A DNA stretch of 64,000 nucleotides from Octopus vulgaris (GCA_951406725.2 OX597824.1:77314001-77378000), one strand, 5' to 3'. Positions 2,609 to 63,822 are shown, numbered from the stretch's first letter. Program-made: numbers and translations. Notes: a model not told the origin generated them from the sequence alone.

Positions 2609-2745
2609 TAGTGGGAATTTACGAAAACAAGAAATGAAGACAGGTGTGTAGTAAACAACAAACAGGTGTAGTAGTTTAACGCTTGGGAAGGAACACAAGA
2701 AAATAAAGAGAGAAAGAATAAACAAAGAAGGCTTTAGTAGCTATA
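2609..2745 (-). mobile_element. (TA)n-embedded element, same family as 16362, 44260, 54027 and 61975 (putative PLE terminus)
   Basis: Reverse complement matches the tail ACACCTGTCTTC...TTTTCGTAAATTCCC-(TA)n. Confidence 0.7.
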
Positions 2746-2970
2746 TATATCTTATATAGATATATATAGCTAGTATATATATATATATATATATATATAT
2801 ATATATATATATATATATGTATGTATATATATATATATATATATATATATATGTATATATATATACATGTATATATATATACATATATGTATATATATAT
2901 ACATATATATATATGTGTGTATATGTATATGTATATATATATGTATATATATATATATATATATATATAT

Positions 2971-3085
2971 ATCAAATAAGTAACAAGGATGTCATCCTTG
3001 TTACTTATTTGATTTTTATTCACCTTATTTCAAGGTGTGCAAATATTACTGGACTGATTTGGTGCCTCAACTTAAGTACCTAATT
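2971..3085 (+). mobile_element. Microsatellite-embedded fold-back element: 43-bp hairpin (2971-3013) plus short tail
   Basis: ATCAAATAAGTAACAAGGATG-T-CATCCTTGTTACTTATTTGAT is a perfect inverted repeat abutting (TA)n. Confidence 0.7.
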
Positions 3086-3639
3086 CAACACACACACACA
3101 CACACACACAGAGGCACATATAAGTGTACCTCAAGTTATGTCTTTTGACTTTACATTGGTCTCAAAGTACATTTAACTTCATAAAAATGAAAATCACACC
3201 TAAAAAACCAATACTTCAGTGGAAAATAAAATAAAATACACGTGAAAATATGTACAAACCATTTATTAACACTAATAAAAACTAATCAATTTTAAGAAAT
3301 GTTCATATTTACAACGTTTATGCTTATTTACATGGTTTTTGGGACTAATAAATTGGCATTCCACAATGAGGTAGATTTGAAGTTTGTATCAAGAAATTCA
3401 AAGATGTTTTTGTGTTTATTGTGTATAAATTTGTGCTTTTTTTCATACATCATGTCTCCCATCAAGAAAGTTCCTGTGGCTAAACCTTGCCCTGGTGGTC
3501 ATAAACCTTATGTATTTTCTTTGGCCGATGAATTGACCAATGACTGAATGCTATGTAAAAGGTAGAAAGATGGTAGTAATTGCACACACTAATGGCTTAA
3601 GTCAGACAAGGATATCTTTAGCTATTCAGACCATAACCT

Positions 3640-4020
3640 TGTGGCCTATGCCAGGGATGTAACTAGCCCACTTATGTCTACCTTTCCTTCATTGGACTCT
3701 AAACTCTGCTTGCGAAGACCTGTTGAGGCAAGTAAAATCAAAATTGAAATCAAATTCGATAACTGGCATCCGTGCTAGTGGAGAGCTAAGAGGTACCATA
3801 CGAGCATGATTGTTGCCAGAGCAACAAGCTGGCCTCTGTGCTGGTGGCACATAAAAAACACTGTTCGAGCATGATCGTTACCTGCATCACCTTACTGGCA
3901 TTTGTGCTGGTGGCACGTGAAAAAGCATTTGAGTGAGGTCATTGCCAGTGCCTCTGGACTGGCGCCTGTGCAGGTGGCACATAAAAAGCACCATTTAAGC
4001 GTGGCCATTGCCAGTACTCA
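3640..4020 (+). mobile_element. RTE-type LINE 3' UTR fragment (family D) with internal tandem units
   Basis: Repeated GTGCTGGTGGCACRTAAAAAGCAC units; matches the reverse complement of 47250-47515. Confidence 0.75.
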
Positions 4021-4169
4021 ACTGCTACTCATTGGAAAGTGAAGGAAATCAGAACACAATGATTAGACTGCTGGCATGATGAAATAGTACCTTTATTTGT
4101 ATACCCCTAACATTGCCTTAAATGAATTTAAAATATATAGATATATATATACTATATATGTACATACAA

Positions 4170-4630
4170 ATATATAAAAGTTTTTCAGAATGAGATAAAA
4201 ATCGAAGGCTGTGGAAAGATTTTAGAACATTTACAAATAGAAGGTCTTACAGCTGTTTCTGGGATATTTTATATATCCCTTCATCGGAGACGGTGTGAGA
4301 AAATGGTTTAAGCAATAGTTATTCTAAATAAGAAATTACTATTGCTTAAACATTTTCTCATACTGTCTTCAATAAAGGGATATACAAAATATCTCAGAAA
4401 CAGCTGTAAGACCTATTTATAAATGTTCTAAAATCTTTCACAGCCTTGGATTTTTATCTCATTCTGAAAATTTTTTTATATATACCCATGTTGATATATG
4501 ACCTACGTTGGACTCTTCATTCACAGAGTCACCGAAACTGAAGCTTAACTATAGTTTGACCATAGCACTTATTCAGCATTACCTGACACCTTTGGGTCTT
4601 ATTGATACCATTACCTCTCATAACCTACAT
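4170..4630 (+). mobile_element. (TA)n-embedded fold-back element with arms of about 155 bp (4170-4483) and an HHR-like motif; putative PLE inverted terminal repeat
   Basis: Arms are reverse complements with scattered mismatches; unique tail 4485-4630 followed by (TA)n. Confidence 0.8.
4244..4291 (-). ncRNA. Minimal type-I hammerhead ribozyme-like motif
   Basis: GUCU-CCGAUGA-A-GGGAUAU(AUAAA)AUAUCCC-A-GAAA-CAGCUG-UA-AGAC gives helix I, core, helix II and a palindromic helix III; a decayed copy lies on + at 4365-4412. Confidence 0.65.
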
Positions 4631-60334: not shown

Positions 60335-60512
60335 CTGGGCAACGCGTTGTGTTCTTGAGCAATACACTTCATTTCACGTTGCTCCAGTCCACTCAGCGGG
60401 CAAAAATGAGTAACACTGCAATGGACTGGTGACCCATCCAGCTGGGGAACACATATGCCATTGAAACTGGGAAACAGGGCCCATGAGACTGGCTAGGCTT
60501 TAAAAAAAGGGC
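60335..60512 (+). mobile_element. SINE core Y plus tail type 2, head missing
   Basis: Reverse complement of 27975-28150. Confidence 0.85.
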
Positions 60513-61098
60513 ACACATACATATATATATGTATGTATGTATGAATGTGTGTATGTATGTATATACACGCTCACATACACATACTGATATACGTACTCGC
60601 ATATACTTAATTTTTTATTTTTTTACGCTAAATGCATCAGGCCACACCAAAGTATATGATCTTCATGCCGAAGTCATGAAGAATATATAGTTAAGTGTGG
60701 TCCAACATGAAAAAATTTTCTCAGGAACCATTTGTTCTTGTGGTTATTTTTATATTTATATTTATGGCTAATCAGTTAATGTCTGCGACTTTCCATCACC
60801 CTGTAACTTGGTAATACAAATTTGAAATCGAAATTGATTAATTTACTGAAGTGCTGAAGTGGGTAGTGCAATTGATGGATTAGGGAGACTGATCTTTGGT
60901 TAGTACAGTGATAACTTTGAATATGCTTCAGTCTTAATGACCTCCTCAGGATAACTTAGTTTAACACATATCTACAAACAAGTGATAGAGAATGCAACCA
61001 TTTGCTGATTAAACAATTAAAAGAAATGGCATGGTTAATATTTCTTAGGGATGACATCTACAGGAAGAACATATAGATAAGTACAGACTAACGCATAT

Positions 61099-61487
61099 GG
61101 GTGGAAGCACTCCGTCGGTTACGACGACGAGGGTTCCGGTTGATCCGATCAACGGAACAGCCTGCTCGTGAAATTAACGTGTAAGTGGCTGAGCACTCCA
61201 CAGACACGTGTACCTTTAACGTAGTTCTCGGGGATATTCAGCGTGACACAGAGATTGACAAGGCCGGCCCTTTGAAATACAGGTACAACAGAAACAGGAA
61301 GTAAGAGTGAGAGAAAGTTGTGGTGAAAGAGTACAGCAAGGATCACCACCATCCCTGCCGGAACCTCATGGAGCTTTAGGTGTTTTCGCTCAATAAACAC
61401 TCACAACGCCCGGTCAGGGAATCGAAACCGCGATCCTAAGACCGCGAGTCTGCTACCCTAACCACTGGGCCATTGCGCCTCCACTTG
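61099..61487 (-). mobile_element. SINE family A (tail type 1), young
   Basis: Near-identical to 1275; 11-bp TSD CTAACGCATAT. Confidence 0.93.
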
Positions 61488-61629
61488 CTAACGCATATAA
61501 CATAGTGAGAAATAGAAAAATATTACAAGGAAGAAAATAGAAAATGATAGCAGGATGCAGACACTATATTAACTTTTCTGGCTCTTAGTTAAGTATAGAG
61601 TGTTTTAGTTAGCCTTTCAAACATCTATT

Positions 61630-62350
61630 GTATTCTTTTTTTTTACTTTTTTCAGTCATTTGACTGTGGCCATGCTGGAGCACTGCCTTGAAGGGTTTGT
61701 TTAGTCAAACAAATCAAAGTATTTTTAAGCCTATTACTTATTCTATTGGTCTATTTTACTGAACTGCTAAGTTAAGGGGACAAAAAACACCAGCATCAGT
61801 TGTCCAGTGATGGCAGGGGGACAAACAGGGACACATACATGAATACATATGTCTATACATACATATGTATGTATGTATGTATGTATGTATGTATGTATGT
61901 ATGTATGTATGTATGTATGTATGTATGTATGTATGTATGTATGTATGTATGTATGTATGTATGTATATATATATAGGGTGAGTTTACAAAAAAAAAACAA
62001 AAGACGAAGACAGGTGGTGTACAAAACAAACAGATGTATTAGTATAACGCTCATATATAATAACAAAATAATAAATAAAACATATGCATATATACATACA
62101 TACAAGTACGTACCTACATCTGTATGTATATATACATGCATATATGGGTAATATATATATATATATACAATAGGCTTCTTTCAGTTACCATTTACCAAAC
62201 TGGCTCACAAGGCTTTGGTCAGTATGAGGCTATACTAGAAGACACTTGCTCAGTGTCATGCAGTGGGACAGATCCCAGAACCATGTGGTTAAGAAGCAAG
62301 CTTATTAACACATGGTCATGTCAGCACCTACAAACAGCCATGTGTGCACC
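61630..62350 (-). mobile_element. SINE family B whose internal microsatellite hosts a 16362-family fragment (61975-62053)
   Basis: Tail part 61630-61835 and head part 62170-62350; the insert is the reverse complement of 16500-16573. Confidence 0.8.
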
Positions 62351-63689
62351 TATTTTTATAATGACATTACAGGGTAGGTGTGAGATGCTAGATCTGGCAA
62401 GGTTTGAGCATAAAGCAGGTAGAATATTTCTGTTGGATATGATCGGTTCACATACTAATGGGTTAAGGGATTTTGCAGGGAAAGTATTGTAACCCCTACA
62501 TAAATATACAGTAATATCTTCTAGCTAGCATTTCAAATGTTCTTTATATGTTAGGTACGACATCTGCTTGAAGAACATATAGTTAAGTGAGCAATAACAT
62601 AGATTGAAGTGAGCAAAAGCAATAAATATATAAATAAATGGATAAATATACTACATTTAGTTTTCTAATGCCTGTTTAAGTATTGAGTAAAGTATTTCTA
62701 GATAACTTTCAACTGTTCTTTGTATGTAAACAAGAGTTTTTAAGCATTGTTTTATTGCCTAATTCCAGATGAATTTAGCCAGCAAATCTGTATATATAAA
62801 CATTGTACTCTGAAACTATTCTATACAAAATGGACCATAAATAAGGTCATGAGTTCAAACCTTCATTGTGGGAGGTATTGTTTCTTATTTGTTGAAGATG
62901 TTTATGATGTAATTAGCAGCAATAGACTGTCAATCCAGGGGTATATGAGGTCATTGTACTATAATTTATTGATAGTCAATTTGCCAAAAATCTCCTCAAA
63001 TAAAACTACCATCAGCAGCAACAGCACCACCACCACCACCACCACTACAACAACAACACCTGTGATCATCATCAACATGATCATTTACACCACACAACCA
63101 GAATGCCACAAATAATAACAAAACAGGGACCACCACTGCCACCACCACTCCATACAACATTCATTTACCATTAGAGTCCAAATGAAGATTTATGGACATG
63201 GACACAAATATCATATCTTTATCTCTTTAAGTTTATCACTGTCCTTCTATACATATACATACATACACACACACACATAAAATATATACAATTGTGTATA
63301 TGATATATATATAGATAAATATCTATATCAGCAGCAGCAACATCCTCATCATCATTTAACATCCATTTTCCATTCTGGCATGCATTGCATCGTTTGACAG
63401 CATGCAGCAAACTTTGGCTTGTTTTGGCTTGTATAATGATGTTTATTACTCACTGGACACACACACATACATACACACACTCACACACACACACACACAC
63501 ACACACACACACACAAAACACACGCATATATATTAATAAAAACAGTAAGATAACAAATGTGTCGGTATGAACAGAAGCGCTTATGAGAATACTATGAACT
63601 TTTTATGCTCCTACCTTACTTAGCAGTCATTCGAATAGCTCTTTTGTCTTAATAGCGGTCAATAACACAGTAATTTCCCTTTGTATAAT

Positions 63690-63822
63690 GGTCATTTTTC
63701 ATAGCATTGATCTGATGGCTGGATAACTGAAGAGATGGTGGCGTGAATTTCCACCTTGGCATCCGAAACTCGGAGTTTAATCACGGCTACTGAATAATTG
63801 TCACATATTACATTTACAGATA
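63690..63822 (+). mobile_element. (TA)n-abutting element with an HHR-like motif at 63722-63782
   Basis: GAUAA-CUGAAGA-GAUG..CAUC-C-GAAA-CUC-G-GAG-UU-UAAUC; homologous to the reverse complement of 18005-18101. Confidence 0.7.

What the first reader, a model, noticed from the sequence alone, without database searches (positions are those of the whole stretch)
2609..63822. Dispersed class of (TA)n-targeted, fold-back, often ribozyme-bearing mini-elements
Seen: at least 15 short (about 80-650 bp) non-coding inserts sit inside or against (TA)n tracts, at 2609, 2971, 4170, 8085, 12850, 13875, 16362, 17944, 18457, 23745, 44260, 51905, 52191, 52872, 53738, 54027, 61975 and 63690. They fall into at least 5 unrelated sequence families. 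Many share one layout: an inverted repeat touching (TA)n on one side and a unique 70-150 bp tail on the other. Four families carry HHR-like motifs. Known: Penelope-like elements have minimal type-I HHRs in their pseudo-LTRs, often leave 5'-truncated copies with an inverted terminal repeat, and include lineages that insert into microsatellites. Inference: this is an abundant, diverse population of PLE termini or retrozyme-like non-autonomous elements colonising the microsatellites, probably missed by simple-repeat masking.
Basis: partly seen in the sequence, partly recalled or inferred. Interest (0 to 1): 0.8.

Follow-up and report, generated by a model that had tools for sequence, protein, structure and literature searches.

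The report
Penelope retroelement stubs in TA microsatellites
These short inserts in TA microsatellites are real and highly repeated, and they are likely the cut-short tail ends of Penelope-like jumping genes, a known kind whose fold-back shape and predicted (here mostly decayed) hammerhead ribozymes are already described, so the finding is ordinary.

Summary
All 18 listed inserts exist (77-645 nt, about ten sequence groups). The four families laid on public runs are highly repeated in three organisms. The layout is less uniform than claimed: 10 of 18 have an inverted repeat, 9 of 18 have hammerhead (HHR) parts, and 2-4 have both. Only 2 have both HHR core boxes intact.

A motif from the 53738 family retrieved 120 metagenome loci. 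There it lies in HHRs matching published Hydra-clade Penelope-like elements (PLEs), 128-206 nt downstream of an RT/GIY-YIG ORF end in 4 loci. Ten loci repeat the head-to-head layout, and 3' ends cluster at two sites about 68 nt apart.

The window has no PLE ORF, no head-to-tail tandems (not retrozymes) and no terminal inverted repeats (not MITEs). Craig et al. 2021 already describe the inverted truncated copy, the tail, the HHR and (TA)n targeting, and list octopus Hydra and Naiad families.

Verdict: new members of a known kind. The PLE link is strong for the Hydra-type families and inferred from layout alone for the HHR-less ones.

The parts
2609..2745 (-). Family A copy; the HHR segment is deleted internally, apparently between TTCC microhomologies
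   Evidence: alignment; BLAST 76-83% to other A copies
2973..3087 (+). Short fold-back (about 20-nt arms) plus 74-nt tail ending at (CA)n; no HHR
4154..4499 (.). Family C head-to-head pair, 85% identical arms. HHR on the minus strand at 4244-4291 (U4C, palindromic stem III); degenerate HHR on the plus strand at 4365-4412. 4483-4628 may be the tail (untested).
8085..8249 (-). Fold-back plus 64-nt tail; 3' half of a Hydra-type HHR at 8213-8229 (plus strand)
12711..13020 (+). Family E insert with an intact-core Hydra-type HHR at 12729-12789 (7-bp stem I with one mismatch, 9-nt palindromic stem III, C17); 33-nt hairpin near the 3' end
13876..13965 (-). Small fold-back plus 64-nt tail; no HHR
14246..14309 (-). 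Unlisted family H copy: tail plus an 8-nt inverted piece that ends at the family's internal end
16363..16572 (+). Family A copy; minimal dimer-type HHR at 16447-16484 (A6U, 4-nt palindromic stem III); no inverted repeat
17944..18422 (-). Family H copy with tail; HHR at 18042-18102 (first box intact, G12A); no ORF remnant upstream
18462..18728 (+). 100%-identical fold-back (165-nt span) plus 102-nt tail; no HHR; weakly related to family B
23748..23944 (-). Family B fold-back plus 103-nt tail; doubtful HHR-like junction in the tail
44270..44417 (+). Family A copy, degenerate HHR
51911..52150 (-). Family B copy without an inverted repeat here; other copies fold back at 52020/52059
52195..52839 (+). 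Long fold-back (543-nt span, 93.5%) plus 102-nt B-like tail; no HHR
52873..53103 (-). Fold-back plus 57-nt tail, very high copy. Loose ends suggest that other copies carry a first HHR box upstream of 52991 (one-base ambiguity).
53739..53963 (-). Family O: Hydra-type HHR at 53843-53880 (two core changes in this copy; the family's majority letter restores G8), inverted truncated copy and 67-nt tail
54028..54212 (+). Family A copy; HHR with A6U and a G at the cleavage position
61976..62052 (-). Family A 3' stub, downstream of the HHR
63690..63821 (+). Family H copy ending at the internal site (no tail); intact-core HHR at 63720-63782

Best explanation
These inserts are real, highly repeated sequences with their 3' ends at (TA)n tracts, and they are likely dead, heavily 5'-truncated insertions of several Penelope-like retrotransposon (PLE) families, of which 53738, 17944/63690, 12850 and 8085 carry a predicted hammerhead of the Hydra-clade type. 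Inferred mechanism: the RT/GIY-YIG protein of a full-length element elsewhere in the genome would nick AT-rich DNA on both strands. It would prime reverse transcription at one of two fixed sites near the RNA 3' end, and synthesis would usually stop after 80-600 nt. If both target ends prime, one at the outer site and one at the inner site, joining the two short cDNAs head to head gives an inverted repeat touching (TA)n plus a single unpaired tail equal to the distance between the two sites. A single priming gives a plain stub. The hammerhead is a passenger of the pseudo-LTR; most copies here are predicted to be inactive or weak. Shown here: the layout, high repetition, two-site ends in relatives, and the ORF link in relatives of the 53738 motif. 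Inferred: the enzymology, the ORF link for these exact families, and the two-primer route.
For: (1) Repetition and polarity. Summed contig depth in run X1 is 1.3e6 on the 53738 tail, 5.7e5 on 52872 and 8.5e4 on the 51905 tail, against 23-60 for single contigs, with similar patterns in organisms B and C. Depth falls away from the 3' end in 53738, 52191 and the 53500 family. Other copies fold back at different points (53816/53874, 53816/53885, 52020/52059). 130 contigs in X4 and 97 in X7 run into (TA)n at the tail end. (2) The 17-nt motif from 53738 gave 130 matches in 120 metagenome loci. 54 of the 110 with >=30 nt upstream have the matching stem I plus a core box, which the pattern did not ask for. 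The commonest form equals or nearly equals the published Hydra-2_Amil HHR. (3) A Hydra ORF C-terminus ends 128-206 nt upstream on the same strand in L001, L031, L054 and L110; an ORF start lies downstream in L100; inverted ORF pieces lie in 4 more loci. Full-length relatives show RWK, DKT, YRDDG, CxCX5C and YIG, the features given for Hydra. (4) 10 of 120 loci are head-to-head pairs and 7 of these 10 have a 10-20-nt flanking duplication (L040 ambiguous). Of 79 scored copies, 45 end at +27 to +33 and 24 at +94 to +104 after the motif. The window copy ends at about +37 and +104. (5) In family H, one copy stops at the internal site and another carries an 8-nt inverted piece ending at the same bases. 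(6) Literature: inverted truncated copy, tail, HHR and (TA)n targets; opposite-strand minimal HHR pairs 100-700 bp apart; two RT start sites bounding the tail.
Against: No PLE ORF remnant in the window: best E 0.29 with a 50-protein Hydra profile. The 54-aa open frame at 53487 found nothing. No contig listed links an insert to an ORF. None of the families matched Hydra-1_Obim or the octopus Naiad ends, by eye or by short-motif search (line breaks can hide hits). Seven of 18 have no HHR part and 8 of 18 no fold-back. Tails are 57-103 nt, against the 30-40 nt published. In the metagenome relatives only 12 of 62 core-bearing copies have (TA)>=4 within 260 nt, so that clade targets AT-rich DNA, not strictly (TA)n. 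The model R1 hit on 53738 (E 7e-5) is partly circular, and its hits on 63722 and 16448 are weak (E 0.11 and 0.18). Three family-A copies start within about 25 nt of each other, which fits a fixed short unit as well as random truncation.
Confidence: 0.85

Rival explanations
1. Some families (A, B, 52872) are ORF-less short units in their own right, either retrozyme monomers or SINE-like pseudo-LTR derivatives. They would be transcribed separately and moved in trans by PLE proteins.
For: Three of five A copies share nearly the same 5' start. No ORF lies in any insert. Pseudo-LTRs can act in trans (passage), and retrozyme monomers are known (passages).
Against: 0 of 18 have a head-to-tail copy nearby. 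Two A copies (44260, 61975) start later. Fold-back points vary and depth is 3'-biased in the families laid. HHR cores are mostly mutated, and no insert begins at the predicted cleavage site.
Confidence: 0.1
2. The fold-backs are MITEs or foldback DNA transposons inserted at TA.
For: Long inverted repeats and a TA target. 4170 is nearly symmetric if its right flank is not a tail.
Against: Terminal 25-mers score 3-8 of 25 in all 18 inserts, against 25 of 25 for the MITE at 10743-11289. The one-sided tail, variable fold-back centre, HHR parts, and ORF link in relatives do not fit.
Confidence: 0.03
3. The palindromes are assembly or long-read artefacts, or local replication hairpins next to (TA)n.
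For: No listed contig spans a whole insert of this locus.
Against: Arms differ by 6-26% in the other large fold-backs. Opposite-strand joints occur in contigs of independent runs, and a 165-nt contig in X4 spans the 53738 centre (53781-53953). The same layout with flanking duplications occurs in unrelated metagenome contigs.
Confidence: 0.02

Closest known systems
Hydra-clade PLEs (Craig et al. 2021, PMC8557442), e.g. Hydra-2_Amil, Hydra-2_Ajap, Hydra-1_Obim
   Same: HHR near the 3' end with an odd-length palindromic stem III (ACTC-N-GAGT in 53738 and family H); (TA)n preference; an inverted 5'-truncated copy; known from Octopus bimaculoides.
   Different: The window families are not Hydra-1_Obim. 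No ORF is present here. Tails are 57-103 nt (about 68 nt in the metagenome relatives) against the 30-40 nt quoted.
Minimal HHRs of metazoan PLEs (Cervera and de la Pena 2014, PMC4209133)
   Same: Short stem I, an extra base before stem II, palindromic stem III, dispersed single motifs, and opposite-strand pairs 100-700 bp apart attributed to truncated PLEs.
   Different: All three HHR-bearing family-A copies have U at core position 6, a change I did not find described (Lunse et al. 2017 not held).
Poseidon_Ac mechanism (Frangieh et al. 2024, PMC11167929)
   Same: Nicks on both strands of AT-rich DNA; two RT start sites bound the tail; HHR cleavage is not needed for insertion.
   Different: A different clade. 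Internal ends here often overlap the target by 2-10 nt (6 of 7 clear window cases; 0-7 nt in 6 metagenome loci), whereas the paper reports initiation without homology.
Animal non-LTR retrozymes (PMC7229834; bioRxiv 10.64898/2026.07.22.740005)
   Same: ORF-less, type I HHR, related to PLE pseudo-LTRs.
   Different: Defined by head-to-tail tandem units; 0 of 18 here are tandem.
Naiad PLEs (PMC8557442)
   Same: No canonical HHR, (TA)n target, inverted copy plus tail, present in octopus as old remnants; a candidate home for the HHR-less inserts.
   Different: No match to the listed octopus Naiad 3' ends.

Membership tests
EN+ Penelope-like elements | Telomerase-like RT plus GIY-YIG ORF in the element family | tested here: inconclusive
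   Absent from the window. Present upstream of the same HHR motif in 4 metagenome loci of other animals. No whole genome is held to extend the window's own families.
EN+ Penelope-like elements | 5' truncation with conserved 3' ends | tested here: met
   Shared 3' ends in A (5 of 5) and in B; 3'-biased depth and variable fold-back joints.
EN+ Penelope-like elements | Inverted 5'-truncated copy joined head to head | tested here: met
   10 of 18 inserts.
EN+ Penelope-like elements | Optional 3' tail on one arm only | tested here: met
   8 listed inserts plus 55047; 41-103 nt. Two-site ends in family H and in 69 of 79 relatives.
EN+ Penelope-like elements | Minimal type I HHR with palindromic stem III near the 3' end | tested here: met
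   Families A, C, E, H and O; half in 8085; none in 7 of 18.
EN+ Penelope-like elements | Partial tandem forming direct pseudo-LTRs | tested here: not met
   0 of 18 in the window; expected only beside long copies. L100 shows an ORF start downstream of the motif.
EN+ Penelope-like elements | Variable target-site duplication | tested here: inconclusive
   Unreadable inside (TA)n. Seen in 7 of 10 head-to-head relatives.
Hydra clade | RWK, DKT, CxCX5C linker, C-terminal EN | tested here: inconclusive
   Met by eye in full-length proteins related to the L001 ORF. No protein is available for the window's families.
Hydra clade | HHR form as in published Hydra elements, and (TA)n preference | tested here: met
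   53738, 17944/63690, 12729 and 8213 compared with supplementary file S2.
Non-LTR retrozymes | Head-to-tail tandem units, each with an HHR | tested here: not met
   0 of 18.
Non-LTR retrozymes | Expression as small circular RNA | not testable with these tools
   No listed run is on record as RNA.
MITE / TIR DNA transposon | Inverted repeats at both termini | tested here: not met
   Scores 3-8 of 25 against 25 of 25 for the control.
Hammerhead ribozyme | Self-cleavage at NUH | not testable with these tools
   Motif prediction only. Folding energies do not exceed shuffles (z from -1.4 to +0.3).

The most novel reading that the evidence does not exclude
Part of this population is an undescribed, ORF-less lineage moved in trans by PLE proteins. 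Three divergent fold-backs (18457, 23745, 52191) keep the same 102-103-nt tail without a canonical hammerhead, and family A is a roughly 200-nt SINE-like unit with a fixed A6U ribozyme core. With thousands of copies per family, their ends would give an in vivo map of the two priming sites and of 2-10-nt target pairing at the inner site.
Probability: 0.2. Interest if true: 0.5.

Novelty: new member of a known kind. Interest (0 to 1): 0.25.

Why it matters
Mostly for annotation. About 8% of this window (5,278 nt in the inserts I listed) consists of likely PLE stubs that a pipeline could file as SINE, MITE or unknown. There is a modest mechanistic use: PLE integration is only partly worked out, and families this abundant, with two fixed 3' ends and variable fold-back points, would allow the two-primer model and the role of microhomology to be tested by counting junctions. 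The class itself, its ribozyme and its target preference are published.

Tried and rejected
No whole genome is held, so families could not be extended 5'.

Rfam: no family at gathering score. E-value scans gave only hairpin or microsatellite noise, and no hammerhead or twister in 52460-53110 or 12700-13020 (one search listed only 150 of 632 matches).

Two family-specific patterns found 0 matches in viral contigs.

The 54-aa frame at 53487-53648 found nothing in Pfam, the word-index search or the 1.84-billion-protein search. tblastn and a Hydra profile found no ORF remnant in the window. Pfam does not name the Hydra proteins either.

A bare 3'-half HHR motif is at chance level (18 real against 19.5 shuffled). 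A tail profile from the metagenome relatives gave no significant hit. A post hoc tail-hairpin motif gave 4 hits against about 1 in shuffles (maximum 4), three of them at plausible tail positions; suggestive only.

No listed run is on record as RNA; run X9 was not used as evidence of expression.

Earlier scan notes held nothing for this genome or these sequences.

The O. vulgaris repeat library (Zenodo) and Lunse et al. 2017 could not be read and may already hold these families or the A6U variant.
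Full report
Setting. The window is AT-rich animal DNA, crowded with microsatellites and SINE-like repeats. No whole genome is held. A 6-kb stretch is held in whole or part by 20 runs from 10 studies and five coded organisms.

Observation. All 18 inserts exist, 77-645 nt long. BLAST and alignment give family A (2609, 16362, 44260, 54027, 61975), family H (17944, 63690, plus unlisted 14245), family B (23745, 51905, with weaker ties to 52191 and 18457) and seven singletons. 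Of 39 hand-set ends, 37 are within 25 nt of (TA)>=4. This is partly by selection, but only 10 of 72 outer SINE ends are that close. The shared layout is looser than stated. Ten of 18 have an inverted repeat beating all 200 shuffles, and none of the five A copies does. Tails run 57-103 nt in eight listed inserts. Both HHR core boxes are intact in 2 inserts, one change is seen in 3, two or more in 3, a 3' half in 1, a doubtful junction in 2 and nothing in 7. Only three descriptor hits (12736, 4287, 63727) stand above shuffles on their own. Rfam finds nothing at gathering score, and folding energies are unremarkable.

Repetition and reality. I laid 51905-53966, which holds 4 of the 18 inserts, on contigs of four runs at 80% likeness. 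Summed depth in X1 is 1.3e6 on the 53738 tail, 5.7e5 on 52872, 8.5e4 on the 51905 tail and 2e3-5e4 along 52191, against 23-60 for single contigs. The tool warns that this is no copy number; I read it only as roughly hundreds to tens of thousands of copies. Organisms B and C show the same pattern. Depth falls away from the 3' end in three families. Other copies fold back at different points (53816/53874, 53816/53885, 52020/52059), one X4 contig spans the 53738 centre, and 130 X4 and 97 X7 contigs run into (TA)n at the tail end. The tails are therefore not single-copy and fold-backs of this kind exist in independent data.

Link to an autonomous element. The 53738 HHR ends in the stem III and stem I form listed for Hydra-clade PLEs in the supplement of Craig et al. 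2021. Of the 110 matches with enough upstream DNA, 54 have the complementary stem I strand plus a core box and 61 have a core box. Most of the rest look like chance bacterial hits or truncated copies. The common forms equal or nearly equal the Hydra-2_Amil HHR, so the host is probably coral (inferred). In L001, L031, L054 and L110 the C-terminus of a Hydra-type ORF ends 128-206 nt upstream on the same strand, and L100 has an ORF start downstream. Full-length relatives of about 700 aa show RWK, DKT, YRDDG, CxCX5C and YIG, the features named for Hydra. Ten loci are head-to-head pairs like 53738, and seven of them have a 10-20-nt flanking duplication. Of 79 scored copies, 45 end at +27 to +33 and 24 at +94 to +104 after the motif; the window copy ends at about +37 and +104. 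Family H shows the same two ends inside the window: 63690 stops at the inner site, 17944 carries the tail, and 14245 is the tail plus an 8-nt inverted piece ending at the inner site.

Results against. The window has no PLE ORF remnant (best E 0.29), and the frame at 53487 found nothing. No family matched Hydra-1_Obim or the octopus Naiad ends. In the metagenome relatives only 12 of 62 core-bearing copies have (TA)n close downstream. The covariance-model hit on 53738 is partly circular, and the hits on H and A are weak. For B, 52872, 2971 and 13875 the PLE reading rests on layout alone. Three A copies start close together, which leaves room for a fixed short unit.

Mechanism. Frangieh et al. 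2024 show for a lizard PLE that the protein nicks AT-rich DNA on both strands, starts reverse transcription at two sites that bound the tail, and does not need HHR cleavage. I infer the same here. One short cDNA from the outer site and one from the inner site, joined at their truncated 5' ends, give the fold-back with a one-sided tail; a single cDNA gives a plain stub. Arkhipova et al. 2013 offer self-priming on an antisense template as another route to head-to-head palindromes; my data do not decide between the two. Inner ends overlap the target by 2-10 nt in 6 of 7 clear window cases and by 0-7 nt in six metagenome loci, a hint of microhomology that was not tested against chance.

Rivals. 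Retrozymes are head-to-tail tandems; 0 of 18 are tandem. MITEs need inverted repeats at both ends; all 18 score 3-8 of 25 against 25 of 25 for the MITE at 10743.

What is known. The inverted truncated copy, the 30-40-nt tail, the HHR and (TA)n targeting, with Hydra-1_Obim, Naiad_Obim and Naiad_Ovul listed for octopus, are in Craig et al.. Opposite-strand minimal HHR pairs from truncated PLEs are in Cervera and de la Pena. A 2026 annotation counts 31 recently active PLE families in O. vulgaris. Searches for octopus with hammerhead or Penelope terms showed no paper on these particular families. A6 changes are reported to lower activity, and a search for A6U listed one paper, on twister ribozymes.

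What I saw of each paper. PMC8557442: passages, section 11, supplement parts 2 and 53 and search hits. PMC4209133 and PMC11167929: parts 1-2 of 4. PMC13282606: parts 1-2 of 3, supplement list only. bioRxiv 10.64898/2026.07.22.740005: part 1 of 5 and passages, supplements not seen. PMC7229834, PMC3846280, PMC8969392, PMC6765202 and PMC3088659: passages. Lunse et al. 2017: nothing (not held).

Verdict. Real and abundant, and an expected product of a known retrotransposon order. New member of a known kind; interest 0.25. Rough confidence in PLE origin: 0.93 for O and H, 0.8 for A, C, E and 8085, and 0.65 for the HHR-less fold-backs.

Noticed in passing
window 53500-53723 (+): An unlisted multi-copy family (summed depth 9e3-5e4 in X1, rising to its 3' end) that ends in the same short (TA)n as 53738, with a possible degenerate HHR at 53686-53711 and a 54-aa open frame without matches.
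   Followed up: partly
window 55047-55239: An unlisted fold-back (152-nt span, 78%) plus a 41-nt tail ending at (TA)n; same layout, no HHR seen.
   Followed up: partly
window 15627-15766 (-): An unlisted 140-nt insert between two (TA)n tracts, with a CTGATGA box and a pyrimidine-rich 3' part.
   Followed up: partly
window 41917-41990 (-): A short insert whose end resembles the tail hairpin of the metagenome Hydra relatives; not statistically significant.
   Followed up: partly
window 2609-2745: A family A copy in which the whole HHR segment is missing, apparently between TTCC microhomologies.
   Followed up: partly
window 18627-18728, 23748-23850, 52738-52839: Three barely alignable tails of the same length (102, 103 and 102 nt), two of them with similar last 15 bases.
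   Followed up: partly
window 10743-11289: An element with identical 25-nt terminal inverted repeats and a transposase-like remnant (mariner-type by recall); used as the positive control.
   Followed up: partly
window 20168-20196 (-): Both HHR core boxes and a 6-nt palindrome next to a SINE end, but stem I does not pair; unexplained.
   Followed up: no
window 21358-21725; 24005-24396; 26091-26328; 37583-38006: One tandem pair and three inverted pairs of SINE-like repeats.
   Followed up: no
L023, L024, L037, L061, L067, L069: Head-to-head Hydra stubs in unique AT-rich DNA with 10-19-nt target duplications that overlap the inner end by 0-7 nt.
   Followed up: yes
L050: A fully symmetric contig around the HHR pair; possibly an assembly fold-back.
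   Followed up: no
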